Origin: Thermocatellispora tengchongensis
GTDB taxonomy: Bacteria; Actinomycetota; Actinomycetes; Streptosporangiales; Streptosporangiaceae
Assembly (NCBI RefSeq): GCF_014202315.1
Contig: NZ_JACHGN010000001.1
Location: forward strand, 21,757-85,756
DNA: 64,000 nucleotides
Direction: 5' to 3'
Shown here: one piece after another, positions 30,956-45,549 of the stretch
Layout: each line of letters opens with the position of its first letter
How positions within the stretch are numbered: the first letter of the stretch is position 1
The notes under the pieces: generated by a model
What the model saw: only the letters and a program-made list of their open reading frames with translations
What the model was told of the DNA's origin: nothing
Databases searched by the model: none
Made by a program: the position numbers and the translations under genes

Positions 30956-30968
30956 GGGACAGAAGCAT

Positions 30969-33032
30969 ATGGACGTGATCTCCACGGGGTTCGGGATTCT
31001 GCTCGCCGTCGTCCTTCTCGTCGTCATCGGGCTGCTCATCGTGGTCAGCCGGCTGTTCCGCAAGGTCGAGCAGGGCAAGGCGCTGATCGTCTCGAAGGTC
31101 AACAAGGTGGACGTCACCTTCACCGGCAAGATCGTGCTCCCGGTGATCCACAAGGCCGAGGTCATGGACATCTCGGTGAAGACCATCGAGATCGAGCGGA
31201 CCGGCCATGAAGGGCTGATCTGCCGCGACAACATCCGGGCCGACATCCGGATCACCTTCTTCGTCCGCGTCAACAAGACGGTCGAGGACGTGATCAAGGT
31301 GGCGCAGGCCATCGGCACGGCCCGGGCCAGTGACCAGGAGACCCTTCAGGAGCTGTTCAACGCCAAGTTCTCCGAGGCGCTGAAGACCGTCGGCAAGCAG
31401 CTCGACTTCGTCGATCTCTACACCAAGCGCGACGAGTTCCGCGACCAGATCATCCGGGTGATCGGCACCGACCTCAACGGCTACAGCCTGGAGGACGCGG
31501 CGATCGACTTCCTGGAGCAGACCCCGATGTCGCAGCTCGACCCGGCGAACATCCTCGACGCCCAGGGCATCCGGAAGATCACCGAGCTGACGGCGTCCGA
31601 GAACGTGCGCACCAACGAGTACCGGCGGCAGGAGGAGAAGGAGATCACGCGCCAGAACGTGGACGCGCGTGAGGCGATCCTGGAGCTGGAGCGGCGGCAG
31701 GCCGACGCGGAGATCAAGCAGAAGCGCGAGATCGAGACCATGAAGGCCCGCGAGGAGGCCGAGATCGCCCGGGTGCAGGCGGAGGAGCGGCTGAAGGCGC
31801 AGACGGCCGCGATCCGCACCGACGAGCAGATCGGCATCCAGCACGAGAACCGGGCCCGGGAGATCGCGGTCGCGGAGAAGAACCGCGAGCGGGTGATCGC
31901 GATCGAGACCGAGCGGATCGAGAAGGACCGCATGCTGGAGGTCATCGCCAGGGAGCGGGAGACCGAGCTGTCCAGGATCGCCAAGGACAAGGAGGTCGAG
32001 GGCGAGAAGCGGTCGATCGCCGAGGTGGTCCGGGAGCGGATCGCGGTGGAGAAGACCGTGGCCGAGCAGGAGGAGAACATCAAGCGGCTGCGCGTGGTCG
32101 AGGAGGCCGAGCGCACCCGCCAGGCCGTGGTCATCCAGGCCGAGGCCGAGGCGCAGGAGAACCTGGTCAAGGACATCAAGGCGGCCGAGGCCGCCGAGGC
32201 GGCGGCCAAGCACCGGGCGCGCGAGGAACTGGTGCTCGCCGAGGCGCGGCAGCAGGCCGCGGAGCTGGACGCCCGCGCCAAGATCAGGCTCGCGGAGGGC
32301 TTGCAGGCCGAGGCGGCGGCGGCGGGCCTGGCCGAGGTCCAGGTGCGCGAGCGGAACGCGGCGGCGATCGAGCGCGTGGGCCGCGCCGAGGCCGCCGTGG
32401 AGCGGGAGAAGGCGGTGGCGGCGGCCGACGCCGTGCGCGAGAAGCTGAAGGCCGAGGCCGAGGGCCTGGGCGAGAAGCTGAAGGCCGAGGCCGAGGGCCT
32501 GGCCGAGAAGGCGACCGCGATGGCCGCGCTGGACGAGGCCACGCGCCACCACGAGGAGTACCGCCTGCGCCTGGAGGCCGAGAAGGAGATCAGGCTGGCC
32601 GACATCAACGTGCGCCGCGAGGTCGCCGAGGCGCAGGCCACCGTGCTGGCCACGGGCCTGGAGAAGGCCAACATCGACATCGTGGGCGGCGACAACGTCT
32701 TCTTCGACCGGCTGGTCAACTCGATCACGGCCGGCAAGAGCGTGGACGGGTTCGTGCAGCACTCGGACGTCGCCGGCGCGCTGGCGGAGCCGTACCTGAA
32801 CGGGAGCGCGAGCCTGTCCGCGGACCTGGCGCGGGTGCTCGGCGCGGTGGACACGGCCGGCGTGCGCGACCTCACCCTGTCCGCGCTGCTGCTGAAGCTG
32901 ATCAAGGCGGGCGGCCCGGACGAGGACCGCATGCGGCAGCTCCTTGAGACCGCGCAGCACCTCGGCGTGGCCGAGACGCCGGTCGCCGCCCTGTCCGCCG
33001 CCGCCCCCGCCGTGCCCGCTTCGGTCAGGTGA
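30969..33032 (+). CDS. flotillin-family SPFH/band-7 protein (YqiK/FloT-like)
   Basis: ATG at 30969 lies 14 bp after the NfeD stop. An N-terminal TM helix is followed by an SPFH domain and ~400 aa of EA-rich coiled coil with AEAEG repeats. Confidence 0.9.
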   Translation: MDVISTGFGILLAVVLLVVIGLLIVVSRLFRKVEQGKALIVSKVNKVDVTFTGKIVLPVIHKAEVMDISVKTIEIERTGHEGLICRDNIRADIRITFFVRVNKTVEDVIKVAQAIGTARASDQETLQELFNAKFSEALKTVGKQLDFVDLYTKRDEFRDQIIRVIGTDLNGYSLEDAAIDFLEQTPMSQLDPANILDAQGIRKITELTASENVRTNEYRRQEEKEITRQNVDAREAILELERRQADAEIKQKREIETMKAREEAEIARVQAEERLKAQTAAIRTDEQIGIQHENRAREIAVAEKNRERVIAIETERIEKDRMLEVIARERETELSRIAKDKEVEGEKRSIAEVVRERIAVEKTVAEQEENIKRLRVVEEAERTRQAVVIQAEAEAQENLVKDIKAAEAAEAAAKHRAREELVLAEARQQAAELDARAKIRLAEGLQAEAAAAGLAEVQVRERNAAAIERVGRAEAAVEREKAVAAADAVREKLKAEAEGLGEKLKAEAEGLAEKATAMAALDEATRHHEEYRLRLEAEKEIRLADINVRREVAEAQATVLATGLEKANIDIVGGDNVFFDRLVNSITAGKSVDGFVQHSDVAGALAEPYLNGSASLSADLARVLGAVDTAGVRDLTLSALLLKLIKAGGPDEDRMRQLLETAQHLGVAETPVAALSAAAPAVPASVR

Positions 33033-36000
33033 CGGTGACGGAGCTGGACGCCGGAACGTACGAGGTCCTGCGGGCGCGGCTCGCCGAGCAGTCGGCCGAG
33101 CTGGCCCGCCGGGCCGAGGCGCTGAACGCGCGCAGGATCGAGACGTTCGGGGGCGCCGAGCTGCGGCTCGTCGGCACCGAGCGCATCCGCACCGGCAACA
33201 ACTGCGTCCCCCGCGACATCGTCTCGGTGGGCGGGCTGATGCTGTTCGGCTACAACGTGTTCATCGGGCTGCGGCCCGAGACGACGGTCGGCGACGTGTT
33301 CTCGCTGCACGCCTTCACCCGCGACGGCGAGGCGTTCCGGTTCGAGGACGTGGCCGAGGACGGGCTGCCGGGCCTGCTGGACGACCCGGGGTTCCGCAAG
33401 GACTTCGCCGAGCTGTACCGGTACTACCGCGACACCCGGCTGATGCAGTTGCGGCGGCTGGACAGCACCCTGCTCGCGGTGTTCCAGACCGCCCCGCCCG
33501 AGCAGGCGGGGCCGCAGGACATCCGGGTGCTGCGGTGGCGGGTCAACGCGGACGGCGCGGTGTCGTACCTGGACAACCGGGGCGAACGCGACCACGTGTT
33601 CCCGCCCGCGCACGACTTCGAGTGGACCGAGACCACCCGCGACGATCACGTCCTGGGACGGCACCCGCACATCTCGATCCAGGGCGAGGTGTTCGTCGAG
33701 ACGATCGGCGGCGACCTCACCATCAAGATCGAGGACAACACGGAGACCGGGCAGGGGATCTACCGCGAGCCGGTGGCGGAGCCGCTGCAAAGCCTCGCCG
33801 ACGCCGACGTGCACTACGCCCGGATCGGGCCGCTGATCCTGCTGCGGGTGCGCCCGTACAAGGAGACCGAGTGGCGGCACCTGGTGTTCAACACCAGGAC
33901 CACGACCGTCACCCGGCTCGACGGGATCGGCCGGGCGTGCCTGCGGCTGCCGGAGGACCAGGGGATCATCTTCCCGGGCGGCTACTACCTGGCCACCGGC
34001 GTCACCAAGACCTTCGACACCGACGTGGCCGGCCTGGAGTTCGAGCGGGTGATCCGCTCGGCCAACGGCGAGGACGTCATGTACGTCTTCCACGCCCGCG
34101 CCGAGGGACGCTCGCTGCTGCTGCCGTACAACGTGATCCGCAAGCAGGTCACCACGCCGATCCCGTGCCACGGGTACTCGCTGTTCGACGACGGCACGTT
34201 GGTGGTGTTCCGGGCGGAGTCGGACGAGCCGTCACGGGTGCACCCGATGCAGGTGTGGCAGACCCCGTTCCAGTCCGACCTGTACGCCGCCGCCCAGCCC
34301 GCCGGCACGGGCCCGCTGGAGCGGATCGGCAACGCCGAGCTGGTGCGGGGGATCTCCGACTGCCTGTCGATCGCCCGGATGACCGAGGAGATGGAGCCCT
34401 CGGCTCCGGTCTACGAGGGCCTGATCGCCGCCTGCGTACGGGCGTTCGACGCCTACCACTGGCTGGGCGAGCACGACCTGCGCGCCCCGCTCGCCGAGGT
34501 GCGGGCGACGGCCGAGCAGGTGCTGGAGGAGTTCGAGAAGGTCCAGGCCCTGACCGCGCAGGCGACCGCGGCCGTGGACGAGGCCGCCGCCGAGATCGGC
34601 GCGCTGATGCGGCACACGCGCGGCGACGCCCCGCGTACGGCGGACGCCTGGGTGGCCGCGCTGGCCGGGCTGCGCCGCGCCCAGGGGCGGCTGGTCACGC
34701 TGCGCGAGATGCGTTACGCCGACCTCGCCCGCATCGACGCGCTCGCCGCCGAACTGGAGTCGGAGGCGGCCGAGGCGGGCCGGCGCGCGGTGGAGTTCCT
34801 GCGCGGCCCCGACGCGTTCACCGGCTACCACGCCGAGGTGGACGGCCTGCTCGCCGAGGCGGAGCGCATCGGCGCCGCCGCCGAGGCCGAGCCCGTACGA
34901 CAGCGGCTGGCCGCGCAGGTCGAGGGCCTGGAGGTGGTGACCGAGGTCGTCGGCACGCTGGAGATCGCCGACGCCACCGTACGGACGGGCATCCTGGAGC
35001 GGGTCGGCGAGGTGCTGGCCGGGCTGAACCGGGCCAGGGCCACGCTGGAGGCCCGCCGCGCCGAGCTGCTGGCGGCCGAGGGCCGGGCCGGGTTCGCGGC
35101 GGAGTTCGCGCTGGTCGGGCAGGCCGTCAGCGGCGCGCTGGCCATGGCCGACACCCCGGAGCGGTGCGACGAGCAGCTCGGCAGGCTGCTGCTGCAGATC
35201 GAGGGCCTGGAGTCCCGCTACGGCGAGTTCGAGGAGTTCCTGACCGAGCTGACCGCCAAGCGCGAGGACGTCTACGAGGCGTTCTCCTCGCGCAAGCAGG
35301 CGCTGCTCGACGAGCGCGCCCGCCGCGCGGGCCGCCTGGCGGAGTCGGCGGAGCGCATCCTCGGCGCGGTCGAGCGGCGCGTGGCGACGTTCGCCTCCCT
35401 GGAGGAGATCAACACCTACTTCGCCGCCGACCCGATGGTGGCCAAACTGCGCTCGGTGGCCGCCGACCTGCGCGAGCTGGGCGACCAGGTGCGGGCCGAG
35501 GAGCTGGAGGGCCGGGTCAAGGCGGCCAGGCAGGAGGCCGGGCGGGCGCTGCGCGACCGGCTCGACCTGTACGCCGAGGGCGGCGAGACGATCCGGCTCG
35601 GCCGGCACCGGTTCGCGGTCAACACCCAGCCGATCGATCTGACGCTGGTCCCGCACGGCGACGGCATGGCGTACGCGGTGACCGGCACCGACTTCCGGGC
35701 CCCGGTCACCGACCCGGACTTCGCCGCGACCCGCCCGTTCTGGAACCAGCTCGTGGTGTCGGAGTCGGAGGAGGTCTACCGCGGCGAGCACCTGGCCGCC
35801 GCGATCCTGGCCGAGGGCCCGCCGGAGGCGCTGCACGAGGCGGCCGTGACCGACGGCGGGCTGCTCGCCCTGGTGCGCGAGCGCGCCGCGGCCCGCTACG
35901 ACGAGGGTTACGAGCGCGGCGTGCACGACCACGACGCCGCCGCGATCCTGGACGCGCTGCTGCGCCTGCACGCGGGCGCGGGCCTGCTGCGATACCCGCC

Positions 36001-37903
36001 CGCCGACCGGGCCGCCGCCCAGCTCTTCTGGGCCTTCGGCGCCGGCCCCGGCGCGCGTGCGTCGTGGGCCACCCGGGCGGCCTCGCTCGCCCGCGCCAGG
36101 GCCGCCTTCGGCCCCTCCCCCGCGATCGAGGACCTGCACCGGGAGCTGGCCCAGGCGATCGGCGCGTTCACCGCGCCGCTGGAGCTGGACGCCCCGCTGG
36201 CGGGCGAGTACCTGTTCGAGGAGCTGGCCGCGGCCCCGGAGGGCTTCGTCACCGGGGCCGGGGCGCGCTCGCTGGTGGAACGGTTCCGGGCGGCGCTGGG
36301 CGCGGCGCGTACCGAGGAGTTCGACAAGGACCTGCGCGCGCTCGGCGACGACCTCGCCACCCGGCACCAGCTCGCCCGCGCCTGGCTCGGCTCGTTCGAG
36401 CCCGGGTCGGCGGAGCTGGAGGAGGCCGCGGCGATCCTGCTGTGCGGCCCCGAGCCGCCCCGGTACGACTCCTCGGCCGCGCTGACGGCCACGGTCGAGG
36501 GCCTGCTCGGCGCGCACCCGCAGATCGCGGAGCGGCGGCTGGAGATCCGGCTGGACGAGTTCCTGGCCAGGACGCGCCGGTTCCGCACGGAGCGGGCGCC
36601 GGCGTACCGGGAGTACCACCGGCGGCGTACGGCGCTGGTCGCGGCGGAGCGGGAGCGGCTGCGGCTGGAGGAGTACCGGCCGAAGGTGATGAGCGCCTTC
36701 GTGCGCAACCGCCTGCTCGACGAGGTGTACCTGCCGCTGATCGGCGACAACCTGGCCAAGCAGCTCGGCGCGGCCGGCGACGCCAAGCGCACCGACCAGA
36801 TGGGCCTGCTGCTGCTCATCTCGCCGCCCGGCTACGGCAAGACGACCCTGATGGAGTACGTCGCGAGCCGGCTCGGCCTGGTGTTCGTCAAGGTCAACGG
36901 CCCCGCGCTGGGCCACGGGGTGACGTCGGTGGACCCAGCCGAGGCGCCGAACGCGACCGCGCGCCAGGAGGTCGAGAAGATCGACTTCGCCCTGGAGATG
37001 GGCAACAACGTCCTGCTCTACCTGGACGACATCCAGCACACCTCGCCCGAGCTGCTGCAGAAGTTCATCTCGCTGTGCGACGCCCAGCGCCGTATGGAGG
37101 GCGTGTGGCGGGGCCGCACCCGCACCTACGACCTGCGCGGCAAGCGGTTCGCGGTGTGCATGGCCGGCAACCCGTACACCGAGGCCGGGCAGCGGTTCCG
37201 GGTGCCCGACATGCTGGCCAACCGCGCCGACGTGTGGAACCTGGGCGACGTGCTGTCGGGCCGGGACGAGCTGTTCGCGCTCAGCTACATCGAGAACGCG
37301 CTCACCTCCAACCCGGTGCTCGCCCCGCTCTCCACCCGCGACCGCGCCGACGTGGAGCTCCTGGTACGCCTGGCGCGCGGCGACGCCGGCGTACGACCGG
37401 ACCGGCTGTCCCACCCGTACTCCTCGGTGGAACTGGACCAGATCCTCTCGGTGCTGCGCAAGCTGCTGAAGGTGCAGCAGGTGGTGCTGGCCAACAACCA
37501 GGCGTACATCGCCAGCGCCGCCCAGTCGGACGCCACCCGCCCCGAGCCCCGCTTCCAGCTCCAGGGCTCCTATCGCAACATGAACAAGCTCGCCGAGCGC
37601 ATCGTCCCGGTGATGAACGACGCCGAGCTGGAGGCGCTGATCGACGATCACTACCTGGGCGAGGCCCAGACCCTCACCACCGGCGCCGAGGCCAACCTGC
37701 TCAAACTCGCCGAGCTGCGCGGCCGGCTCACCCCCGAGCAGGCGGATCGCTGGGCCGAGATCAAGGCCGCCCACCTGCGCACCCAGTCGCTCGGCGGCCC
37801 CGAGGACGACCCCACCACCCGCACCGTCGCCGCCCTGGCGGTCCTGGCCGACCGTGCCGCCGCCATCGAATCCGCCATCACCCGGGCCACCTCCGCCTCC
37901 TAG
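33029..37903 (+). CDS. giant (1624 aa) flotillin-associated protein with C-terminal dynein-type AAA+ (AAA_5/MoxR-like) ATPase domain
   Basis: GTG start overlaps the flotillin stop (GTGA). Walker A motif LLLISPPGYGKTTL, Walker B motif VLLYLDDIQH, and an AAA_5-like FAVCMAGNPYTEAGQRFRVPDMLANR segment. The ~1200-aa N-terminal region (globular plus long Ala/Arg/Glu-rich helical part) has no recognised family. Confidence 0.85.
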   Translation: MTVTELDAGTYEVLRARLAEQSAELARRAEALNARRIETFGGAELRLVGTERIRTGNNCVPRDIVSVGGLMLFGYNVFIGLRPETTVGDVFSLHAFTRDGEAFRFEDVAEDGLPGLLDDPGFRKDFAELYRYYRDTRLMQLRRLDSTLLAVFQTAPPEQAGPQDIRVLRWRVNADGAVSYLDNRGERDHVFPPAHDFEWTETTRDDHVLGRHPHISIQGEVFVETIGGDLTIKIEDNTETGQGIYREPVAEPLQSLADADVHYARIGPLILLRVRPYKETEWRHLVFNTRTTTVTRLDGIGRACLRLPEDQGIIFPGGYYLATGVTKTFDTDVAGLEFERVIRSANGEDVMYVFHARAEGRSLLLPYNVIRKQVTTPIPCHGYSLFDDGTLVVFRAESDEPSRVHPMQVWQTPFQSDLYAAAQPAGTGPLERIGNAELVRGISDCLSIARMTEEMEPSAPVYEGLIAACVRAFDAYHWLGEHDLRAPLAEVRATAEQVLEEFEKVQALTAQATAAVDEAAAEIGALMRHTRGDAPRTADAWVAALAGLRRAQGRLVTLREMRYADLARIDALAAELESEAAEAGRRAVEFLRGPDAFTGYHAEVDGLLAEAERIGAAAEAEPVRQRLAAQVEGLEVVTEVVGTLEIADATVRTGILERVGEVLAGLNRARATLEARRAELLAAEGRAGFAAEFALVGQAVSGALAMADTPERCDEQLGRLLLQIEGLESRYGEFEEFLTELTAKREDVYEAFSSRKQALLDERARRAGRLAESAERILGAVERRVATFASLEEINTYFAADPMVAKLRSVAADLRELGDQVRAEELEGRVKAARQEAGRALRDRLDLYAEGGETIRLGRHRFAVNTQPIDLTLVPHGDGMAYAVTGTDFRAPVTDPDFAATRPFWNQLVVSESEEVYRGEHLAAAILAEGPPEALHEAAVTDGGLLALVRERAAARYDEGYERGVHDHDAAAILDALLRLHAGAGLLRYPPADRAAAQLFWAFGAGPGARASWATRAASLARARAAFGPSPAIEDLHRELAQAIGAFTAPLELDAPLAGEYLFEELAAAPEGFVTGAGARSLVERFRAALGAARTEEFDKDLRALGDDLATRHQLARAWLGSFEPGSAELEEAAAILLCGPEPPRYDSSAALTATVEGLLGAHPQIAERRLEIRLDEFLARTRRFRTERAPAYREYHRRRTALVAAERERLRLEEYRPKVMSAFVRNRLLDEVYLPLIGDNLAKQLGAAGDAKRTDQMGLLLLISPPGYGKTTLMEYVASRLGLVFVKVNGPALGHGVTSVDPAEAPNATARQEVEKIDFALEMGNNVLLYLDDIQHTSPELLQKFISLCDAQRRMEGVWRGRTRTYDLRGKRFAVCMAGNPYTEAGQRFRVPDMLANRADVWNLGDVLSGRDELFALSYIENALTSNPVLAPLSTRDRADVELLVRLARGDAGVRPDRLSHPYSSVELDQILSVLRKLLKVQQVVLANNQAYIASAAQSDATRPEPRFQLQGSYRNMNKLAERIVPVMNDAELEALIDDHYLGEAQTLTTGAEANLLKLAELRGRLTPEQADRWAEIKAAHLRTQSLGGPEDDPTTRTVAALAVLADRAAAIESAITRATSAS

Positions 37904-38053
37904 CGGCCCGTTCTGGCCAGGGCGGTGAGCCGCACGCCGCCGTCCTGGCGAAAGGGATGGAAGGGCCGCCTTCGGATTCCGTCCCGCACAGGCAGCGCCA
38001 CGCGGACCCGCACGACCACCGCTTGACCCTGGCACATCACGCTAACTACGTTA

Positions 38054-38069
38054 TTCCGTAATTTCGGAA
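38054..38069. promoter_or_regulatory. inverted repeat TTCCG-N6-CGGAA immediately upstream of the RBS of the ArsR-like gene
   Basis: Read directly from the sequence (ttccgtaatttcggaa). It sits in a short AT-rich leader just before the GGAGG RBS and the ATG at 38083. Confidence 0.35.
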
Positions 38070-38082
38070 CTACGGAGGCTTG

Positions 38083-38631
38083 ATGAACGAGGAACGATTA
38101 GCGGAACTTGAGCGCCGGGTGGCCCGCCTGGAGGCCGCGCTGACGGGCGCCGGGCAGGACCGGCGGCCTCCCGAGGCGTCGCCGTCATCACTGGACCTGC
38201 TCCGGCGCTTCGAGGCGGCGGCCGAGGAGGAGACGGGCGAGAGCGCCGGCACCATCGCGTACGTCGGGGCCGCGCTGCTCGACGGCGACCGGCACCTGTG
38301 GGCGAGTGAGCACCGCGTGGCCGACCTGATGGCGGCCGACTGGGGGCCCGCCGCCGCGCTGCTGGAGGCCATGGGCAGCCCGGCGCGGCTGGCCCTGCTC
38401 GCGGCGCTGGTGCGGGGGCCGCGGACCCGGGCGTACCTGCAGGAGGCCCTGGGCGGGGAGACCACGAGCGGCCACCTCTACCACCACCTGCGGGAGTTGC
38501 AGCGTACGGGGCTGATCGCGCAGCGGCGGCGCGGGGAGTACCAGGTCGTCTCCCGCGCGGTGGTCCCGATCCTGGCCGCCCTGGCCGCCGCCCTCGACCT
38601 CGGCGTCGCCCCCACGGCCCAGGAGGAGTAG
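38083..38631 (+). CDS. ArsR-family winged-helix transcriptional regulator with N-terminal coiled-coil
   Basis: C-terminal ARLALLAALVRGPRTRAYLQEALG...SGHLYHHLRELQRTGLI is an ArsR/SmtB-type wHTH. Confidence 0.75.
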   Translation: MNEERLAELERRVARLEAALTGAGQDRRPPEASPSSLDLLRRFEAAAEEETGESAGTIAYVGAALLDGDRHLWASEHRVADLMAADWGPAAALLEAMGSPARLALLAALVRGPRTRAYLQEALGGETTSGHLYHHLRELQRTGLIAQRRRGEYQVVSRAVVPILAALAAALDLGVAPTAQEE

Positions 38632-38636
38632 ATCCC

Positions 38637-39752
38637 ATGCGCACGCACCCCGCGTGGGCCGCGTGGGCCCGCGGCGACATCGACGAGGCCGCCCGCCTGG
38701 CGGCCGAGCACGGCCACGACCGGGTGCTCGTGCTCACCGACCTCGTACGCGGCCGGTACGAGCCCGCCCTGGCCCGCTACGCCGCCAAGCCCCGGCGCGA
38801 CCTGGCCGAGCCGATCGCGCACGCCCTGCTGCACCTCCGCCGCACCGATGAGGCGCACGACCTGGCCCGCCGCCTGCTCGGCGACCGCCGCACACCGCCC
38901 GATCTGGCGCTCCGCCGCGCCCGCCCCCTGACCGTGGCGGCGTCCGGCACGGTCACACTGCCCTTCTGCGACCACCCACTGGCCCCCTACCTCCCCGCCG
39001 TCGCCGGACAGATCGAGGGCCGGCGCACGCCGATCCACCTGGACACCGGCGGCACGTTCCTGGTCATGGGCCTGGAGCGGGCGGAATCGCTGGGCATCGC
39101 CTCGGTCCCCAACGGCCGGCACGCCCACGGCGTCACGCGTACGCCCGCCCGCTTCGGCATCGCCCGCGAACTCGTGCTCGGCGACGTCAGGCTGACGAAC
39201 GTGCCGGTGGACATCCTGCCCACCTTCACCGGTGTCCAGGACCTGGTGATCATGGGCACCAACCTGCTGCAATGCTTCCTGGCCACGATCGACCACCCGG
39301 CGAGCCGCCTGATCCTCGCCCCGCGCGGCACCCCGCCCCCGCCCGGCCTCCGCATCCCGTTCTACCTATGGGGCGATCACTACATGTTCGCCCGCGGCGG
39401 CTACGGCGAACGCCGCGACCTCACCTTCTTCATCGACTCCGGGCTGGTCATGGTGCACCAGGCCGACGACGGGCCACCGCGGCAGGCGTGCGCGTACGCG
39501 ACCCGGCGCCAGTACCGGGTGGCGTGGGGCATCCCGCGCCACCGCGCCGCGACCGCGTTCCACGAGGCCGAACACCCCGTCAGGCTCGGCCCCCTGGAAC
39601 AGCCCGGCCACCTCCTGGCCACCACCCCCACCCGCCGGACCCCCTGGTCCTCCTTCGGCGGCGTGCGCATCCACGGCCTGCTCTCCCACGCCTTCCTGAG
39701 CCGTTACGCCTGGACGCTGGATTTCGACCGGCACGAGTACACCTTCGGCTGA
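38637..39752 (+). CDS. retropepsin-like (clan AA) aspartic protease domain protein
   Basis: The PIHLDTGGTFLVMG motif (D-T/S-G) is the catalytic signature of retroviral-type aspartyl proteases. The C-terminal ~200 aa have no recognised family. Confidence 0.7.
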   Translation: MRTHPAWAAWARGDIDEAARLAAEHGHDRVLVLTDLVRGRYEPALARYAAKPRRDLAEPIAHALLHLRRTDEAHDLARRLLGDRRTPPDLALRRARPLTVAASGTVTLPFCDHPLAPYLPAVAGQIEGRRTPIHLDTGGTFLVMGLERAESLGIASVPNGRHAHGVTRTPARFGIARELVLGDVRLTNVPVDILPTFTGVQDLVIMGTNLLQCFLATIDHPASRLILAPRGTPPPPGLRIPFYLWGDHYMFARGGYGERRDLTFFIDSGLVMVHQADDGPPRQACAYATRRQYRVAWGIPRHRAATAFHEAEHPVRLGPLEQPGHLLATTPTRRTPWSSFGGVRIHGLLSHAFLSRYAWTLDFDRHEYTFG

Positions 39753-39845
39753 CATGATCGGCCATTTGAACATGAGGCGATGGCAACGGTGGCGGTCGCC
39801 GCCCTGGCGGTCCTGGCCGACCGCGCCGCCGCCATCGAGACCCGC
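39753..39845 (+). repeat. chimeric duplicated fragment: copy of 42222-42286 (lipoprotein gene start) fused to a copy of 37826-37869 (3' end of the giant ATPase gene)
   Basis: catgatcggccat...gaacatgaggcgatggcaacggtggcggtcgcc matches 42222-42286. The next stretch, gtcgccgccctggcggtcctggccgaccgcgccgccgccatcga, matches 37826-37869 with 2 mismatches. Confidence 0.6.
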
Positions 39846-39905
39846 CACCTCCCAGTGACTCCCCGCCTTGACATACCGTGAAGTGACGCCAAGGGGGGAG
39901 GCCGG

Positions 39906-41186
39906 ATGGCGGGAGCCCAGGCCGAGCGGAACCGGATCGATTTCCTGGTGGAGATCGGCTTCCGGCTGTCGGCCGCGCTCAACGTACGGCGGTGCGCGTA
40001 CGCGGCGGCGCGGCTGGCGACCACGTATCTGGCCGAGGTCGCGGCCGTGGCCCTGGGGCCGGACGAGCGGCACCGGGTGCGGTGGGTGCGCACCGTGGCG
40101 GGGCGCGACGACGCCGAGGAGGGCGAGGTCGCCGGCCGCGCCGCGGTCGCGGTGCCGGGGCTCGGCGAGTCGCCGGGCGACCTGCCGGGGTCGGCGCGCC
40201 GGCTGAAGCCGGACGAGGTGCCGGAGTGGCTGCTCCCGCCCGCGCTCGCCGCCGGCCGGCAGGTGCTGGTGGTCACGCTGTCCGGCCCCGCCGCCCCCTG
40301 CGGGGCGCTCTTCCTCGTCCGGCACGGCCCGGACGATGACCCCGACGCGGAACCGCTGGCCCGCGCCCTGGCCGAACGCGCCGGTGCCGCCATCTGCGCC
40401 GCCAGGCTGTACGAGGAGCAGTGCGCGATCAACGACGCCCTGGCCGCCGACCTGCTCCCGTCGCCCCTGCCCGAGTTTGAGGGGGTGGACCTGGCCGGCT
40501 CGCTGCGCGCCTCCCAGCAGGCGGGCCGGCTCGGCGGCGACTTCTACGACGTCCACCTCCCCCCGGCCGGCGGCGCGCCGGAGCCGACGCTGGCGGTGCT
40601 CGGCGACGTGTGCGGCAAGGGCGTGCAGGCGGCCGCGCTCGCCGGACGTGTACGCCACAGCCTGCGCGCGCTGCTGCTCCTGGAGCGGCGCCCCGAGCGG
40701 CTGGCCGACCTGCTCAACCGGACCCTGCTCGACTCGCCCACCCCCTATTCGCACGTCACGCTGGTCCTGGCCGCGCTGAGCCGGGCCCCCGACGGGCACG
40801 TGCGGCTCGGCCTCGCGGTGGCCGGGCACCCGCCGCCGCTCATCCTGCGCCGCGACCGCTCGGTGGAGGAGGTCTCCTCCACCGGCTGCATGCTCGGCGT
40901 CCTGCCCGACATCGGCGTACGCACCGTGCCCGCCGACCTCGCGCCCGGCGAGGTGTGCCTGCTCTACAGCGACGGCGTGACCGAGGCGTTCGGCGGCCCG
41001 GCCGGTCACGAGATGTACGGCGACGACCGGCTCAAGACCGCCCTCGCCTCCTGCGCCGGAATGCCGGCCGCCGCGGTGGTGGCGCGGCTGGAGCAGCTCG
41101 GCAGCGAATGGCTGGCCGGCGGCGAGCACGACGACCGGGCGCTGCTGGCCATCCGGTGTCCCCTCCCCTCCGCGCCATGGACCTGA
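39906..41186 (+). CDS. PP2C-family serine phosphatase (SpoIIE/RsbU-like) with N-terminal GAF-like sensor region
   Basis: C-terminal PP2C motifs GGDFYD, LGDVCGKG and YSDG, and the regulatory arrangement typical of RsbU-type phosphatases. The sequence TTGACA at 39868-39873 is a possible -35 promoter element. Confidence 0.85.
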   Translation: MAGAQAERNRIDFLVEIGFRLSAALNVRRCAYAAARLATTYLAEVAAVALGPDERHRVRWVRTVAGRDDAEEGEVAGRAAVAVPGLGESPGDLPGSARRLKPDEVPEWLLPPALAAGRQVLVVTLSGPAAPCGALFLVRHGPDDDPDAEPLARALAERAGAAICAARLYEEQCAINDALAADLLPSPLPEFEGVDLAGSLRASQQAGRLGGDFYDVHLPPAGGAPEPTLAVLGDVCGKGVQAAALAGRVRHSLRALLLLERRPERLADLLNRTLLDSPTPYSHVTLVLAALSRAPDGHVRLGLAVAGHPPPLILRRDRSVEEVSSTGCMLGVLPDIGVRTVPADLAPGEVCLLYSDGVTEAFGGPAGHEMYGDDRLKTALASCAGMPAAAVVARLEQLGSEWLAGGEHDDRALLAIRCPLPSAPWT

Positions 41187-41208
41187 AGGCGCCATGGACC
41201 TGAAGGCC
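41173..41208 (+). repeat. 17-bp perfect tandem duplication (cgccatggacctgaagg x2) spanning the PP2C stop and the next gene's start
   Basis: Read directly from the sequence. Copy 1 supplies the PP2C C-terminus (PWT-stop), and copy 2 supplies the MDLKA start of the B12-binding gene. Confidence 0.7.
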
Positions 41209-42216
41209 GCCCAGGACCGCTATCTGGAGCGCGCCGCCGAGGCCGACGCCCGGGGCGCGGTGGACCTCGTGCTCGGGCTGCTGGACGACGGCGTACCGGC
41301 CGAGGACGTGCTGCTGCGGGTGATCGCGCCGGTGCAGCGGCGGGTGGGCGAGCTGTGGGCCGCCAACACGTGGTCGGTGGCGCGCGAGCACGCGGCCACC
41401 TCCGTGAGCGAGACGGCCGTGGCCGCGGTCGCCGTACACGCGCGGCCCCGGCCGGCGCGCGGCCGGATCACGGTGGCCTGCACCGACGGCGAGTACCACG
41501 CGCTGCCCGCCCGCCTGCTCGCCGAGGTGCTGCGCCTGCGCGGCCATCGGGTGGACTTCCTCGGCGCCAGCGTCCCCGGCGGGCACCTGCTGTCCTACCT
41601 GCACCAGACCGGCCCCGACGCGGTGGCCGTGAGCTGCACTCTGCCCACCCGGCTGCTGCGCGCCCACGGCCTGATCACCGCCTGCCGCGCGGCGGGCGTA
41701 CCGGTGCTCGCGGGCGGCGCCGGCTTCGGCCCCGACGGCCGCTACGCCCGGACGCTGGGCGCGGACGCCTGGGCGCCCACCGCCGACGCCGCCGCGGACA
41801 TCCTGGACTCCGGCGGCCTGCCCGCCTTCCCGCCCGTGCCCGACGGCGCGCTCCGGGTCGCGGACAAGGAGACCGCCGAACTCCTCCGCCGCCGCACCGC
41901 CCTGCTCGCCGCGGTGCTGGACGACCTCGGCCGCGCCTACCCGCCCATGTCCGCCTACGACCCGGAGCAACTGGAGCGCACCGCCGAGGACCTGGGCCAC
42001 ATCGCCGACTTCCTGTCCACCGCCCTGTTCGTGGACGACCCGGCCCTGTTCACCGGCTTCGTCACCTGGACCCGCGACATCCTGCTGGCCCGCGGAGTGC
42101 CACCGGAACCGCTCGTGACCGGCCTGCGGGTCATGCGCGACCGCCTCCCCGGCCTCCCCCGAGCCCGGGAGCTCCTGACCGAGGGCATCCGCGCCGCCAT
42201 GGCCGGACTGGCATAA
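41194..42216 (+). CDS. cobalamin (B12)-binding domain protein lacking a DNA-binding domain
   Basis: An N-terminal helical B12-binding_2 region and a Rossmann-like B12-binding core (ITVACTDGEYHALPARLLAEVLRLRGHRVDFLGASVP). There is no MerR HTH. Confidence 0.7.
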   Translation: MDLKAAQDRYLERAAEADARGAVDLVLGLLDDGVPAEDVLLRVIAPVQRRVGELWAANTWSVAREHAATSVSETAVAAVAVHARPRPARGRITVACTDGEYHALPARLLAEVLRLRGHRVDFLGASVPGGHLLSYLHQTGPDAVAVSCTLPTRLLRAHGLITACRAAGVPVLAGGAGFGPDGRYARTLGADAWAPTADAAADILDSGGLPAFPPVPDGALRVADKETAELLRRRTALLAAVLDDLGRAYPPMSAYDPEQLERTAEDLGHIADFLSTALFVDDPALFTGFVTWTRDILLARGVPPEPLVTGLRVMRDRLPGLPRARELLTEGIRAAMAGLA

Positions 42217-42254
42217 TCGGCCATCCCACCAGCCCCCCTCACCCCAGGACGAAC

Positions 42255-43097
42255 ATGAGGCGATGGACAACGGTGGCGGTCGCCGCACTGATCGCGTCCG
42301 CCCCGGCCGTACTCGCGACCCCGGCCTCCGCCACGGCGGCCCCTGACCCGGTGCAGGCGCTCAAACGCCAGTTCCGCCCCGAGAAGGGCGTCCACATCAC
42401 CGAGGTCGCCCGCATGACCTACAAGGGCGAGGCGAGCAGGACCCGGGTCTCCGGCAGGATCCAGTTCGCCGCGACCGGCCCCGTCGCCTTCGACGGCACG
42501 AGCTACGTGGTCCCCGAGCGGGAGGACGTCATCGCGCCCGTCAACGAGCCGACCGACATGACGCTCGTCGGCCGGCGACTGTACCTGTCGTGGGACGGCC
42601 TCCCGGACGGCAAGAAGTGGGTGACCCTGGACCTGGGCGATTTCTTCACCGCGCACGACCTGAGCGCGCAGAGGATCACGGTCCTGAACCCGTCGGTACT
42701 CAACGCGATGCTGCGAGGGCGCACCGGCGAGCCGGTCTCCGGCGGCTACTTCTACCAGGGCAAGGTGACCTACGCCGACCTGTACCGGGCCGACCCGAAG
42801 CACTACGGTTCGGTGCTGAAGGCCCTGCGGATCAGCGCGCCCTCCAAGCAGACGATCGCCTTCAAGCTCTGGACGAGCCGCGACGGCCTGCCCACCCGCC
42901 TGATGACCTCCGAGACCGAGCGGAACAAGCGGACGAGCCGCAGCATAGACACCCGCTACACCGACTGGGGCGCAGAGGTCATCGTCCTCGCCCCGCCCGC
43001 CGACGAGACCATTCCCTTCGACGATGTGCCCCTCGACGACCCGGAGCCCAAAGAGATCCTGAACGTCCTCCCGGGCCGCGCCCGCGACGCCGCCTGA
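42255..43097 (+). CDS. secreted hypothetical protein (signal peptide)
   Basis: ATG at 42255 in frame with ORF 41355..43097, with a signal peptide MRRWTTVAVAALIASAPAVLATPASA. GC3 is high. Confidence 0.7.
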   Translation: MRRWTTVAVAALIASAPAVLATPASATAAPDPVQALKRQFRPEKGVHITEVARMTYKGEASRTRVSGRIQFAATGPVAFDGTSYVVPEREDVIAPVNEPTDMTLVGRRLYLSWDGLPDGKKWVTLDLGDFFTAHDLSAQRITVLNPSVLNAMLRGRTGEPVSGGYFYQGKVTYADLYRADPKHYGSVLKALRISAPSKQTIAFKLWTSRDGLPTRLMTSETERNKRTSRSIDTRYTDWGAEVIVLAPPADETIPFDDVPLDDPEPKEILNVLPGRARDAA

Positions 43098-43193
43098 GCC
43101 CTCACGCGGGCGCGCTCCCGCCTTCGTACAGGGCCGCCTGAGCCCCCACGTGGGCGCGCTCCCGCCACGCGGCCGGGAGCGCGCCCACGGCGC

Positions 43194-43763: not shown

Positions 43764-43800
43764 TTGGGTGGCCGAGGGGACGTTGGGTGGCCGAGGGGAC
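43764..43800 (+). repeat. 18-bp tandem duplication (ttgggtggccgaggggac x2) abutting the ATG at 43801
   Basis: Read directly from the sequence. It contains a purine-rich RBS-like GAGGGGAC in each copy. Confidence 0.7.
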
Positions 43801-45549
43801 ATGGTGCTCGACCCAGAGCTCGCGGAAATCGTCGACAACCTCCGTACCATCGGCGCGGACATCGCCGACGTCGAGGTGAAGAAGGCCCAGGGAGGCCTGC
43901 CCAGGTCGCTGCGCGAAACGCTCTCGGCGTTCGCCAACACCCGAGGTGGCGTGATCATCCTAGGGCTGGACGAAACCCAGGGCTTCGCGGCGACGGGCCT
44001 GACCGATCCGGCGGACGTGGCCGCGGGTCTGGGCGCCATGTGCGCGGAGGACATGGAACCACCGCTGAGACCTCTTATCAAGATCCATCGGTTCGAGGGC
44101 ACTCACATACTGGTCGCGGAGGTCCCCGAACTCGATGCTGCTCAAAAGCCCTGCTTCTCGCGGTCCGCGGGCATCACCAAGGGCAGCTACGTCAGGGTCG
44201 GCGACGGCGATCGCCGGCTGTCGGCCTACGAGGTGCAGGTCATGCTGTCCTCCCGAGGCCAGCCTCGGGAGGACGAACAGGCCGTACGAGGGGTGGGGTT
44301 GGAGCACCTCGACCCCGCAGGCGTGGACGCGTTGATCGGCCGGCTACGCATCAGCAGGCCGTATGCGTTCAAGGATCTCACCCCGATGGCGGTGCTGCGG
44401 CGCGCCAAGGTGCTTGTGCCGGACGGCCACGGTGGTGAGGCGGTCTCGCTGGCCGGGCTTCTGGCACTTGGGCGCTACCCACAGGAGCACTTTCCTCAAC
44501 TGATGGTCACCTTCGTCCACTATCCCACCCCCAGCGGATCGCGACCTGATGCGCGGTTTCTGGACAACGTAACGCTGGAAGGCCCGATCCCGATCATGGT
44601 CCGCGACACCCTCGCAGCGATACGTCGCAACATGTCGCGCAGAGCGGTCATCGAAGATGCGGGCCGCGAGGATGTCTGGGAGTATCCGGAGACGGCGCTG
44701 CGGGAAGCGGTGGTGAACGCCTTGGTTCACCGTGACCTGTCCACCGGCGCGCGCGGCACTCAGGTCCAGGTCGAGATGTATCCCGACAGATTGCTTATTC
44801 GCAATCCCGGTGGACTGTTCGGTCCTGTCAGCATCGACAGCCTGGGCGAAGAGGGCATCTCCTCCGCCCGTAACGCCATTCTCATCAAACTCCTGGAAGA
44901 TGTCCCCCTGCCCGGTGAGAGCCGTACCGTCTGCGAGAATCGCGGGTCGGGTATCCGGGCCATGCTCAACTCATTGCTGGCCGCGGGCATGAGCCCGCCG
45001 CAGTTCGATGACAAAATCTCCTCTTTCGTGGTCCTCTTCCCCAACCACACGCTCCTGAGTGAGGAGATTGTCGGCTGGATCCGCAGTCTGGGAGAGAAGG
45101 GTCTGACCGACAGTCAGTGCGTCGCCCTGGCCCTGCTACGCGAAGAGGGAAGCCTCGACAACCGCGCATACCGCAACGCGACCGGTGTGGACTCACGCGT
45201 CGCCACCGCCGAACTCCGGGACCTCGTCGCCCGTGAGCTCATAACCCAGTCAGGGACTCGCCGCTGGGCCAGGTATCTGCTGTCCCAGCGCCACACCGAG
45301 ACGACGGATCAGTCCGCGCGCGCCGACCGCAGGCCGCAACTGCTGGCGGCTCTTGGAGAGCAGACTCTGTCCCGGGCCGAGTTGGTGTCGCGGACCGGAC
45401 TCGGCGATCAGACGGTCCGGAGGTGGTTGAAGATCCTCCGGGACGAGGGCCTGATCGAGACCGTGGGAAGCCCCAAGAGCGTTCACGTCCGATATCGCCG
45501 CACGCGTCAAGAACCACTCTTCCCGCACGGGAACTCGGGGCGCGACTGA
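43801..45549 (+). CDS. AlbA_2 (Schlafen-like divergent AAA) + HATPase_c_4 + C-terminal wHTH putative transcriptional regulator
   Basis: The domain order matches the widespread 'ATP-dependent DNA helicase RecG-related / putative DNA-binding' family. GC content is visibly lower (~64%) than the flanking genes, with frequent A/T-ending codons. Confidence 0.8.
   Translation: MVLDPELAEIVDNLRTIGADIADVEVKKAQGGLPRSLRETLSAFANTRGGVIILGLDETQGFAATGLTDPADVAAGLGAMCAEDMEPPLRPLIKIHRFEGTHILVAEVPELDAAQKPCFSRSAGITKGSYVRVGDGDRRLSAYEVQVMLSSRGQPREDEQAVRGVGLEHLDPAGVDALIGRLRISRPYAFKDLTPMAVLRRAKVLVPDGHGGEAVSLAGLLALGRYPQEHFPQLMVTFVHYPTPSGSRPDARFLDNVTLEGPIPIMVRDTLAAIRRNMSRRAVIEDAGREDVWEYPETALREAVVNALVHRDLSTGARGTQVQVEMYPDRLLIRNPGGLFGPVSIDSLGEEGISSARNAILIKLLEDVPLPGESRTVCENRGSGIRAMLNSLLAAGMSPPQFDDKISSFVVLFPNHTLLSEEIVGWIRSLGEKGLTDSQCVALALLREEGSLDNRAYRNATGVDSRVATAELRDLVARELITQSGTRRWARYLLSQRHTETTDQSARADRRPQLLAALGEQTLSRAELVSRTGLGDQTVRRWLKILRDEGLIETVGSPKSVHVRYRRTRQEPLFPHGNSGRD

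What the first reader, a model, noticed from the sequence alone, without database searches (positions are those of the whole stretch)
39753..39845. Chimeric ghost fragment: start of the 42255 gene fused to the last 44 bp of the giant ATPase gene, lying between the protease and PP2C genes
Positions 39753-39800 repeat 42222-42286 (cat[g/a]atcggccat ... gaacatgaggcgatgg(a)caacggtggcggtcgcc). Positions 39795-39838 repeat 37826-37869 (gtcgccgccctggcggtcctggccgaccgYgccgccgccatcga) with only 2 mismatches. The junction uses the shared octamer gtcgccgc. As a result the PP2C–B12 gene pair (39846-42221) is bracketed by imperfect direct repeats, and a piece of the ATPase 3' end lies 2 kb from its source. 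This looks like a footprint of tandem duplication or illegitimate recombination that built, or inserted part of, the ArsR/protease/PP2C/B12 cluster.
Basis: seen in the sequence. Interest (0 to 1): 0.6.

Follow-up and report, generated by a model that had tools for sequence, protein, structure and literature searches.

The report
Recombination scar between two gene modules
An 86-base stretch between two genes is a dead patchwork copied from the start of a nearby gene and from near the end of a giant ATPase gene, most likely left when a two-gene phosphatase/B12-binding module was spliced into the locus by illegitimate recombination; this is an ordinary kind of genome-evolution footprint.

Summary
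Window 39795-39838 copies 37826-37869, inside the 3' end of the DUF3686/AAA ATPase gene (44 nt, 1 mismatch, E 1e-17). Window 39753-39802 copies the upstream region and first 11 codons of gene X (42212-42286). The two copies overlap on the octamer GTCGCCGC.

Three assemblies of Thermocatellispora tengchongensis carry the same sequence, one of them an 11.7-Mb contig, so it is not an assembly artefact.

- ArsR-protease is a native module. It keeps its palindromic operator, which is also found in Nonomuraea.
- PP2C-B12 is a separate conserved two-gene module, found in Sphaerisporangium, Microtetraspora and on Streptomyces plasmids. Here it has complete coding sequences but lacks its usual upstream block.
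- PP2C-B12 is bracketed by the two copies of the X start.

The fragment matches no Rfam family, shows no unusual RNA fold and has no annotated gene. Its copy of the X start is frameshifted and has lost the ribosome-binding site.

Best reading: a non-functional junction scar from microhomology-mediated illegitimate recombination that inserted PP2C-B12 between the protease gene and X. I cannot tell whether this was one template-switching or break-repair event or an unequal crossover between two versions of the locus, because no close relative has been sequenced. This is a known kind of event, so interest is low to moderate.

The parts
37826..37869 (+). Lf1: source copy of the 44-nt block. It lies in frame inside the ATPase gene (33029-37903) and encodes VAALAVLADRAAAIE. 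It ends 34 nt before the end of the stop codon.
   Evidence: 44 nt, 1 mismatch, E 1e-17; frame and C-terminal tail
38016..39752 (+). Module M1: promoter/operator (TTGACC -35 box plus imperfect palindrome TTCCGTAA/TTTCGGAA at about 38047-38075), ArsR-type HTH_20 gene (38080-38631) and retropepsin-like aspartyl protease gene (38637-39752). The module is intact at both ends.
   Evidence: Pfam and NCBIfam; nucleotide homology to Nonomuraea L092 over 38243-39749 and to L090 over 38650-39746 plus the operator 38016-38078; palindromes in L090 and L092; alignment A1
39753..39765 (+). R1a: the 13-mer CATGATCGGCCAT directly after the protease stop codon. It copies 42212-42224.
   Evidence: the only two copies in 64 kb
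39768..39802 (+). R1b: dead copy of X's start (GAAC + ATG + 10 codons). It has a 1-nt deletion that shifts the frame, and it lacks X's ribosome-binding site.
   Evidence: E 2e-10
39795..39802 (+). Junction octamer GTCGCCGC, shared by both source sequences (37826 and 42279) and in frame in both genes.
39795..39838 (+). Lf2: copy of the ATPase 3' block. The single difference is a synonymous third-position change (CGT to CGC).
39839..39883 (+). s2: 45-nt spacer of unknown origin. It has only a weak resemblance to the last 34 nt of the ATPase gene (p about 0.05). Read in the ATPase frame it contains rare codons.
39884..42205 (+). Module M2: ribosome-binding site, PP2C/SpoIIE phosphatase gene (39906-41186) and B12-binding protein gene (41194-42216). 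It is about 75% identical at the nucleotide level to the same gene pair in Sphaerisporangium (L088) and Microtetraspora (L089). The conserved ~85-nt upstream block of those loci is missing here.
42212..42286 (+). R2: the functional copy, comprising the 13-mer, 26 nt with the ribosome-binding site, and the ATG (42255) plus the first 11 codons of gene X (42255-43097, a secreted protein with a weak SCO4651-family match).
39772..39858 (+). Accidental 28-codon ORF (MRRWQRWRSPPWRSWPTAPPPSRPATSQ*) that starts at the ghost's copy of X's ATG. It is not annotated in any assembly.
   Evidence: gene lists

Best explanation
The 86-nt stretch 39753-39838, probably together with the 45-nt spacer that follows it, is a non-functional junction scar. 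It was left by microhomology-mediated (illegitimate) recombination that placed a promoter-less PP2C-B12 two-gene module between the aspartyl-protease gene and gene X.

Shown:
- The scar consists of a decayed copy of the X upstream region and its first 10-11 codons, joined at the shared octamer GTCGCCGC to a 44-nt copy of the ATPase 3' coding region, which lies 2 kb upstream.
- PP2C-B12 is flanked by the two copies of the X start.
- ArsR-protease keeps its native operator, and the ATPase keeps its conserved tail. PP2C-B12 has lost the upstream block that its orthologues carry.

Inferred:
- PP2C-B12 is the newcomer.
- It is now transcribed by read-through from the ArsR-controlled promoter (promoter capture).
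- The ghost itself does nothing.

Preferred route, about 45%: one complex repair or replication event with template switches. Synthesis runs from the protease end into the X start, jumps back at GTCGCCGC to the ATPase tail for 44 nt, switches to the donor DNA carrying PP2C-B12, and re-enters at the start of the X upstream region.

Alternative route, about 35%: an unequal crossover between two versions of the locus (see the rival explanations).

The confidence given is for the generic scar reading.
For: - The repeats are real and statistically strong.
- There is an 8-nt microhomology exactly at the joint, and that octamer is in frame in both genes.
- The sequence is identical in three assemblies, including a long contig.
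- M1 is a native module. The ArsR-protease pair and the palindromic operator are conserved in Nonomuraea.
- The resident ATPase tail keeps the conserved AIxRA motif seen in 80 homologues. The ghost loses it immediately after the 44-nt block.
- M2 is an independent, conserved and mobile pair. It sits in unrelated contexts in Sphaerisporangium and Microtetraspora and on Streptomyces plasmids. Nucleotide homology runs only from -22 of the PP2C gene to the end of the B12 gene, and both coding sequences are complete. The upstream block shared by L088 and L089 is absent.
- The ghost's X start has lost its ribosome-binding site and is frameshifted.
- There is no Rfam hit, the fold z-score is -0.66, and no gene is annotated there.
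- No tRNA was found in the window, and no transposase or integrase domain appears among the cluster genes.
- Experimental precedent: double-strand-break repair scars in Streptomyces ambofaciens carry 42-bp and 83-bp inserts copied from nearby DNA, and inserts up to 18.8 kb (PMC5869714, read). In E. coli, microhomologies of 3-12 bp lie at deletion and tandem-duplication joints that let a promoter-less transferred gene capture a promoter (PMC6614815).
Against: - No close relative exists in the databases. The nearest homologues are X 46%, PP2C 67%, protease 72% and ATPase about 80% identical. The pre-insertion state has therefore never been seen, and the direction of the event is inferred.
- A single event needs three or four template switches, which is rarely documented in bacteria.
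- The two copies of the X start differ by a 26-nt against 2-nt replacement and a 1-nt indel. These must be later decay or copying errors.
- The origin of the 45-nt spacer is unknown.
- Co-transcription of PP2C-B12 with the ArsR-protease genes is untested. The consensus promoter scan found nothing anywhere in the region, not even at the ArsR promoter, so it is uninformative here.
Confidence: 0.85

Rival explanations
1. The ghost is a duplication-type join point between two versions of the locus. One haplotype was ATPase-ArsR-protease-X and the other was ATPase-PP2C-B12-X. The second could be a related strain's DNA brought in by conjugation. Alternatively, a true tandem duplication occurred and its second copy was later overwritten by PP2C-B12. 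An illegitimate crossover at GTCGCCGC joined the X start of the first version to the ATPase tail of the second and stacked both modules. This is a sub-variant of the scar reading, not a contradiction of it.
For: - Joining a downstream piece to an upstream piece at a microhomology is the classic signature of a tandem-duplication or unequal-crossover joint (PMC6614815 and PMC11111574).
- Both modules abut the same X upstream 13-mer within a few nucleotides of their stop codons.
- Both repeats show similar divergence of about 2%, as alleles would. The single substitution in the ATPase piece is synonymous.
Against: - The model needs a second haplotype that has never been observed, and two or three separate events.
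- In that haplotype the ATPase would lack the AIxRA motif conserved in all 80 homologues and would end in rare codons.
- Identity falls abruptly from 98% to near background after 44 nt, so a further breakpoint exactly there is required.
- Among the homologue groups compared (19 Nonomuraea loci plus four small groups from six other Streptosporangiaceae genera), the DNA downstream of the ATPase gene is shared within each group rather than varying locus to locus. That flank is therefore not a general hotspot.
Confidence: 0.35
2. The fragment is a functional element. It could be a repeated regulatory site shared by the PP2C and X promoters, or a leader peptide or upstream ORF (39772-39858) that controls PP2C-B12 translation.
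For: It lies directly upstream of the PP2C gene. It contains an ATG-initiated 28-codon ORF. The same 13-mer plus 35-mer precede both PP2C and X.
Against: - The similarity runs 31 nt into the X coding sequence and 44 nt through ATPase coding sequence, as expected of copied DNA and not of an operator.
- The ORF lacks a ribosome-binding site and encodes an Arg/Trp/Pro-rich frameshift product.
- There is no RNA structure signal (z -0.66) and no Rfam match.
- The orthologous PP2C-B12 modules have a quite different conserved upstream block.
Confidence: 0.04
3. PP2C-B12 was inserted by a mobile element or a site-specific recombinase, with CATRATCGGCCAT acting as an attachment or cassette site.
For: The 13-mer sits at the 3' boundary of both modules. 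PP2C-B12 pairs occur on plasmids and next to IS605-family and defence genes elsewhere.
Against: - No integrase or transposase domain was found in the cluster or its flanks.
- The window contains no tRNA.
- No terminal inverted repeats flank M2.
- There is no third copy of the 13-mer.
- The duplicated target is 50-75 nt, far longer than a transposase target-site duplication.
Confidence: 0.03
4. The repeats are an assembly artefact or a chance similarity in GC-rich DNA.
For: The DNA is about 72% G+C and rich in Ala/Leu codons. A third, 70%-identical match to the 44-mer exists at 38554-38597.
Against: - E-values are 1e-17 and 2e-10 within the window. The 70% match is not significant (E 0.66).
- The locus is identical in three assemblies made from different data, including an 11.7-Mb contig with long-read-type errors.
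Confidence: 0.01

Closest known systems
Microhomology-mediated tandem-duplication or deletion joints that let a promoter-less transferred gene capture a host promoter (Li & Bock 2019, PMC6614815; PMC11111574)
   Same: A GC-rich microhomology of 8 nt lies at the joint (3-12 bp in those experiments). The joint runs downstream piece to upstream piece. A module without its own promoter ends up behind a resident operon.
   Different: Those were laboratory events in E. coli with identical repeat units. Here the two 'units' carry different genes, the event is old enough to show decay, and promoter capture is only inferred.
Double-strand-break repair scars with captured DNA in Streptomyces ambofaciens (Hoff et al. 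2018, PMC5869714)
   Same: The organism is also an actinomycete. Scars carried 42-bp and 83-bp inserts copied from DNA close to the break, and insertions ranged from 30 bp to 18.8 kb. The 44-nt and 50-nt copies here come from 2 kb away and from the adjacent sequence.
   Different: Those scars carried a single insert at an induced I-SceI break. Here there are two short copies, a spacer and a 2.3-kb module, together with a duplication of the target. Involvement of Ku/LigD was not tested.
Replicative template switching (FoSTeS/MMBIR) as reviewed in PMC2583991
   Same: Serial joints at microhomologies. Short segments are copied from nearby positions. Re-entry upstream of the exit point produces a duplication.
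   Different: The mechanism was defined mainly from human rearrangements and E. coli amplification. There is no direct evidence for a replicative mechanism here.
Homology-facilitated illegitimate recombination (from my own knowledge: de Vries & Wackernagel 2002; the term also appears in PMC6382021)
   Same: One end of incoming DNA could have recombined homologously in X or in the ATPase gene, while the other end joined at a short microhomology.
   Different: It has been described for naturally transformable bacteria. No donor sequence is known here.
Transposon target-site duplication
   Same: Direct repeats of the target flank an inserted segment.
   Different: The repeat is 50-75 nt rather than 2-15 nt. 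There are no terminal inverted repeats and no transposase. An extra 44-nt piece from 2 kb away lies inside the joint.

Membership tests
Illegitimate (microhomology-mediated) recombination joint | Two sequences that are not contiguous at their sources are abutted | tested here: met
   The X start (source 42251-42286) is joined to the ATPase 3' block (source 37826-37869) at 39795-39802.
Illegitimate (microhomology-mediated) recombination joint | A short shared sequence (about 2-15 nt) lies exactly at the junction, with no long homology | tested here: met
   The octamer GTCGCCGC is present in both sources and only once at the joint. No further collinear similarity was found between the two flanks.
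Illegitimate (microhomology-mediated) recombination joint | No dedicated recombinase, att site or transposon ends | tested here: met
   Pfam domains of the cluster and its flanks contain no integrase or transposase. No tRNA. No flanking inverted repeats.
Simple tandem duplication | The two adjacent units have the same content | tested here: not met
   Unit 1 carries ArsR-protease and unit 2 carries PP2C-B12. Only the 44-nt and 50-nt ends are shared.
Simple tandem duplication | The join point runs from the end of the unit to the start of the unit | tested here: met
   The X start is followed by the ATPase tail.
Break-repair filler / templated insertion | A short copy (tens of bp) of nearby genomic DNA lies at the junction of a rearrangement | tested here: met
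   A 44-nt copy from 1,969 nt upstream and a 50-nt copy of the adjacent sequence. The size range matches PMC5869714.
Break-repair filler / templated insertion | Dependence on end-joining enzymes (Ku, LigD) or on a break | not testable with these tools
   This needs genetics. The presence of ku and ligD in the genome was not examined.
IS, transposon or MITE insertion | Terminal inverted repeats, a short target-site duplication and a transposase | tested here: not met
Known structured RNA (for example a cobalamin riboswitch upstream of a B12-related operon) | A match to an Rfam covariance model, or an unusually stable fold | tested here: not met
   The only hit was a miRNA model at E 0.43, far below its gathering score. 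The fold z-score is -0.66.
Pseudogene fragment of the DUF3686 ATPase | Homology to the ATPase beyond the 44-nt block, or retention of the conserved tail motif | tested here: inconclusive
   The next ~30 nt align only weakly (p about 0.05). The conserved AIxRA motif is absent.

The most novel reading that the evidence does not exclude
The scar may be a natural fossil of multi-step templated break repair in an actinomycete, in which short copies from 0 and 2 kb away were chained to a captured foreign module. If so, its two pairs of direct repeats (44 nt, and 35 plus 13 nt) still make the locus a two-way deletion switch. Recombination between the 44-nt copies would remove ArsR-protease and fuse the ATPase gene to an alternative tail next to PP2C-B12. 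Recombination between the copies of the X start would remove PP2C-B12. A more speculative addition concerns the half-operator TTCCGTAAT found upstream of the orthologous PP2C-B12 modules. It hints that this module is normally controlled by an ArsR of the same type, which would make the fusion into one operon adaptive.
Probability: 0.1. Interest if true: 0.45.

Novelty: new member of a known kind. Interest (0 to 1): 0.27.

Why it matters
The fragment is a clean, base-resolved example of how a lineage-specific operon (ArsR-protease-PP2C-B12-X) was assembled from independent two-gene modules. The joints are still readable: an 8-nt microhomology, a 44-nt copy from 2 kb away, and a duplicated target. 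It mirrors, in a natural genome, scars produced experimentally in Streptomyces and E. coli. It also suggests that a promoter-less signalling module was put under an ArsR-controlled promoter. It does not reveal a new mechanism or a new kind of element. For annotation, the practical message is that 39753-39883 is junk, not a gene or a regulatory RNA.

Tried and rejected
- Orthologous loci. I fetched 80 loci encoding homologues of the ATPase, from many actinomycete genera. None has ArsR, protease, PP2C, B12 or X within 10 kb downstream. Only FabH/KAS III reappears, in some Nonomuraea. The 'which pair is absent' test is therefore impossible at this distance. The organism is in a monotypic genus, and its own genome was not among the loci returned.
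- Contexts of the nearest homologues. I looked at X, PP2C and the protease. They share only the module partner and never the neighbouring module, so no ancestral arrangement was recovered.
- Metagenome scan for any sequence encoding VAALAVLADRAAAIE: 0 hits.
- Extension of homology beyond the 44-nt block and to the left of the 13-mer. The first is weak (p about 0.05) and the second is absent.
- Similarity between the ArsR upstream region and the PP2C upstream block of L088 and L089 (4 of 500 shuffles reached the score). I first took this as evidence that the ArsR promoter region once belonged to PP2C-B12. I rejected that reading after finding the same operator upstream of protease modules in Nonomuraea, which have no PP2C. 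The shared TTCCGTAAT half-site remains unexplained.
- Promoter and terminator consensus scan: nothing anywhere in the region, so it is uninformative in this high-GC genome.
- Rfam search and RNA folding: negative.
- tblastx of the Nonomuraea downstream regions against the window: only GC-rich noise.
- The base-composition profile shows no boundary at the ghost.

Full report
**1. The observation**

Reading 37.5-42.6 kb, running the repeat finder and a self-BLAST of 39700-39920 against the window confirm two short, strong, collinear matches.

- Block Lf. Window 39795-39838 equals 37826-37869 over 44 nt with one mismatch (37855 T against 39824 C; E 1.3e-17).
- Block R, part 1. Window 39768-39802 equals 42251-42286, 35 nt against 36 nt, with a single 1-nt gap (E 1.9e-10).
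- Block R, part 2. CATGATCGGCCAT at 39753-39765 pairs with CATAATCGGCCAT at 42212-42224. These are the only two copies in 64 kb, even allowing two mismatches.
- Between the two parts of R the ghost has 'tt'. The downstream copy has 26 nt there, including the AGGA ribosome-binding site of gene X.
- The two blocks overlap on GTCGCCGC (39795-39802). On the + strand between 37 and 43 kb this octamer occurs only at 37826, 39795 and 42279, and 13 times in the whole window.

The next-best similarities to the ghost are at chance level (E at least 0.04).

- There is one mismatch, not two.
- The ATPase piece ends 34 nt before the end of the stop codon, so it is not the 'last 44 bp'.
- The right-hand repeat begins at 42212.

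**2. Not an artefact**

The protease protein is encoded on three public contigs.

- L082 (GCA_039543005.1) and L083 (a Logan assembly of run SRR12365043) are 100% identical to the window over 21 kb and 17 kb.
- L081 (GCA_042675265.1, an 11.7-Mb contig) is 99.95% identical. Its differences are single-base homopolymer deletions plus one substitution, and none lies in the ghost.

Source names identify the organism as Thermocatellispora tengchongensis. The near-identity suggests that these are probably all the same strain. They therefore validate the sequence but say nothing about population variation.

**3. Gene content**

Pfam and NCBIfam give the following:

| Coordinates | Product |
|---|---|
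| 30930-33032 | 700-aa protein with no domain hit |
| 33029-37903 | 1624-aa DUF3686 + DUF7902 + AAA ATPase |
| 38080-38631 | ArsR-type HTH_20 regulator |
| 38637-39752 | retropepsin-like aspartyl protease |
| 39906-41186 | SpoIIE/PP2C phosphatase |
| 41194-42216 | B12-binding protein (B12-binding_2 + B12-binding) |
| 42255-43097 | gene X |

- Gene X has a signal-peptide-like start, MRRWTTVAVAALIASAPAVLA, and a weak SCO4651-lipoprotein-family match.
- All of these genes are on the + strand. The gaps between the cluster genes are 5 nt (ArsR to protease), 153 nt (protease to PP2C), 7 nt (PP2C to B12) and 38 nt (B12 to X).
- The ghost occupies the 153-nt gap.
- No gene is called there in any assembly.

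**4. The cluster is a mosaic of independent modules**

*The region downstream of the ATPase gene.*
- Eighty loci encoding ATPase homologues (70-76% identity, many actinomycete genera) all keep the 700-aa gene plus the ATPase gene.
- None has any of ArsR, protease, PP2C, B12 or X downstream.
- The only window gene from this side that reappears downstream of the ATPase in some Nonomuraea is FabH/KAS III (window 49202). The roughly 11-kb interval up to it therefore appears lineage-specific.

*PP2C-B12 (M2).*
- The two closest PP2C homologues (66-67% identity) are from Sphaerisporangium sp. NPDC051017 (L088) and Microtetraspora glauca (L089).
- In both, the PP2C gene is followed immediately by a B12-binding gene, in unrelated surroundings: GmrSD and SNF2 genes in one, IS605 OrfB, DUF4407 and a kinase in the other.
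- The same pair occurs on large Streptomyces plasmids.
- Nucleotide homology to the window runs from 39884/39905 to 42189/42205 at about 75% identity.
- The N-terminus of PP2C and the C-terminus of B12 are complete.
- L088 and L089 share a conserved upstream block of about 85 nt. The window has nothing like it in front of PP2C.

*ArsR-protease (M1).*
- Nonomuraea endophytica (L092) has the same HTH_20-protease pair. N. glycinis (L090) has the protease alone.
- Nucleotide homology ends at the protease stop codon (39746-39749).
- Upstream, all three genomes share a TTGACC -35 box and a palindromic operator: TTCCGTAA|TTACGGAA in L092, a 30-nt palindrome in L090, and TTCCGTAA|TTTCGGAA in the window.

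*Gene X.*
- X homologues are at most 46% identical and sit in an unrelated mnmA...ligA context.

In short, M1 is intact with its own control region. M2 consists of complete coding sequences plus a ribosome-binding site but lacks its native upstream block. X is a third unit.

**5. Which piece is the newcomer**

Three observations point to M2.

- The resident ATPase tail (...AAAIE-SAITRATSAS*) keeps the xAIxRA motif present in all 80 homologues and is contiguous with M1. The ghost copy reads VAALAVLADRAAAIE and then TRHLPVTPRLDIP*, with rare codons. It loses the motif exactly where the 44-nt identity stops.
- M1 has its native operator, and M2 lacks its native upstream block.
- M2 is the segment bracketed by the two copies of the X start. 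The upstream copy is dead, with no ribosome-binding site and a 1-nt deletion that gives a 28-codon nonsense ORF. The downstream copy is the working start of X.

**6. What the ghost is not**

- It is not a known RNA (Rfam search).
- It is not unusually structured (fold z-score -0.66).
- It is not associated with a tRNA.
- No integrase or transposase domain was found among the cluster genes or their flanks, and no terminal inverted repeats flank M2.
- The consensus promoter and terminator scan found nothing anywhere in the region, including the ArsR promoter, so it carries no weight here.

**7. Mechanism**

The arrangement is ATPase(Lf1)-s1-M1-R1::Lf2-s2-M2-R2-X, where s1 is the sequence between Lf1 and M1 (the last 34 nt of the ATPase gene plus intergenic DNA) and s2 is the 45-nt spacer at 39839-39883. 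R1 and Lf2 are fused at an 8-nt microhomology that is in frame in both genes.

Joining a downstream segment to an upstream one at a microhomology is the hallmark of illegitimate recombination of the duplication type. Laboratory examples show GC-rich microhomologies of 3-12 bp at such joints, and show that these events let promoter-less transferred genes capture a host promoter (PMC6614815; PMC11111574).

In an actinomycete, repair scars at induced breaks contained 42-bp and 83-bp inserts copied from nearby DNA, and insertions up to 18.8 kb (PMC5869714). The 44-nt and 50-nt copies here fall in that size range.

I see two routes.

*(B) One complex template-switching or break-repair event.*
- Synthesis leaves the X start at GTCGCCGC and copies 44 nt of the ATPase tail 2 kb upstream.
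- It then switches to donor DNA carrying s2 and M2, and re-enters at the beginning of the X upstream region. This re-entry creates the R duplication.

*(A) An unequal, illegitimate crossover at the octamer between two versions of the locus.*
- One version was ATPase-M1-X and the other ATPase-M2-X.
- Alternatively, a true tandem duplication occurred and M2 later overwrote its second copy.

How the evidence bears on the two routes:
- Route B needs one event, but several switches.
- Route A uses standard single steps. It needs an unobserved haplotype whose ATPase lacks a conserved motif, plus an extra breakpoint exactly after the 44 nt.
- The weak similarity of s2 to the last 34 nt of the ATPase gene (p about 0.05) does not decide between them.
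- Both repeats show about 2% divergence plus indels, which fits either age or allelic difference.

I put route B at about 45%, route A at about 35% and other illegitimate routes at about 5-10%. The generic reading, a non-functional junction scar from the insertion of M2, stands at about 85%.

**8. Consequence (inferred)**

M2 has a ribosome-binding site but lacks the upstream block that its orthologues carry. No terminator-like structure separates it from the protease gene. PP2C-B12, and perhaps X, are therefore probably read through from the ArsR-operated promoter, which amounts to an operon fusion by promoter capture. This is untested.

**9. Comparison with known kinds, and novelty**

The fragment meets the defining features of a microhomology-mediated illegitimate joint and of templated filler DNA. 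It fails those of a simple tandem duplication (the units differ), of a transposon insertion and of a structured RNA.

It is a new instance of a well-known kind of event, neatly preserved, in a genome with no sequenced close relative. Interest is low to moderate.

Noticed in passing
window 41172-41207: There is a perfect 17-nt tandem duplication (GCGCCATGGACCTGAAG, two copies) exactly at the PP2C/B12 gene boundary. With one copy, the B12 ATG would overlap the PP2C stop by 10 nt, comparable to the 8-nt overlap in L089 and the 1-nt overlap in L088. The duplication converts the overlap into a 7-nt spacer and leaves both genes intact. This is a second small duplication in the same module.
   Followed up: partly
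window 38016-38078; L090 7932-7993; L092 7441-7466: A conserved promoter/operator lies upstream of the ArsR-protease module. It has a TTGACC -35 box and a palindrome (TTCCGTAA|TTACGGAA type) overlapping the likely -10 region, and it is shared with two Nonomuraea species. It is probably the autoregulatory site of the HTH_20 regulator.
   Followed up: partly
L088 7938-7946 and L089 7931-7939: In Sphaerisporangium and Microtetraspora the conserved ~85-nt block upstream of PP2C-B12 contains ATTTCCGTAAT, identical to one half of the ArsR-protease operator. The 9-mer occurs at only four independent places in the first 89 loci fetched, i.e. before L090 and L092, which also carry the palindrome. This could be chance or a shared regulator type, and remains unexplained.
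   Followed up: partly
window 37842 (L081 9206): The only substitution between the 11.7-Mb assembly (L081) and the window over 21 kb lies inside the 44-nt source repeat (T to C, GTC Val to GCC Ala). The chance of that is about 0.2%. It could be a real mutation or conversion within the repeat, or a long-read consensus error next to a CCTGG site.
   Followed up: no
L081 11269-13575: In assembly GCA_042675265.1, PP2C and B12 are called as one 768-aa fusion protein and the ATPase gene is broken. The causes are single-base homopolymer deletions typical of long-read errors, so these are not real fusions.
   Followed up: yes
window 30930-37903 and L001-L080: The 700-aa gene with no domain hit and the 1624-aa DUF3686/DUF7902/AAA ATPase gene overlap by 4 nt in the window. 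Both genes are present, in the same order, in 77 of the 80 actinomycete loci fetched; the other three contigs end before the 700-aa gene. The pair is widespread and uncharacterised.
   Followed up: no
window 43768-45549: A gene with SLFN_AlbA_2 and HATPase_c_4 domains (Schlafen/AlbA-like) lies in a patch of lower G+C (0.62-0.67 against about 0.72). This suggests another separately acquired piece of the island between the ATPase gene and FabH.
   Followed up: no
window 43089-43166: Two 34-nt direct repeats, 94% identical and spaced 44 nt apart, overlap the 3' end of gene X and extend into the gap before the convergent YCII gene. They overlap inverted-repeat arms and may be a bidirectional terminator (D10 and I3).
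   Followed up: no
plasmid records H1, H3-H5: PP2C genes paired with 'cobalamin-dependent protein' genes occur on large Streptomyces plasmids. This fits the pair being a mobile signalling module, possibly a B12- or light-sensing input to a phosphatase.
   Followed up: no
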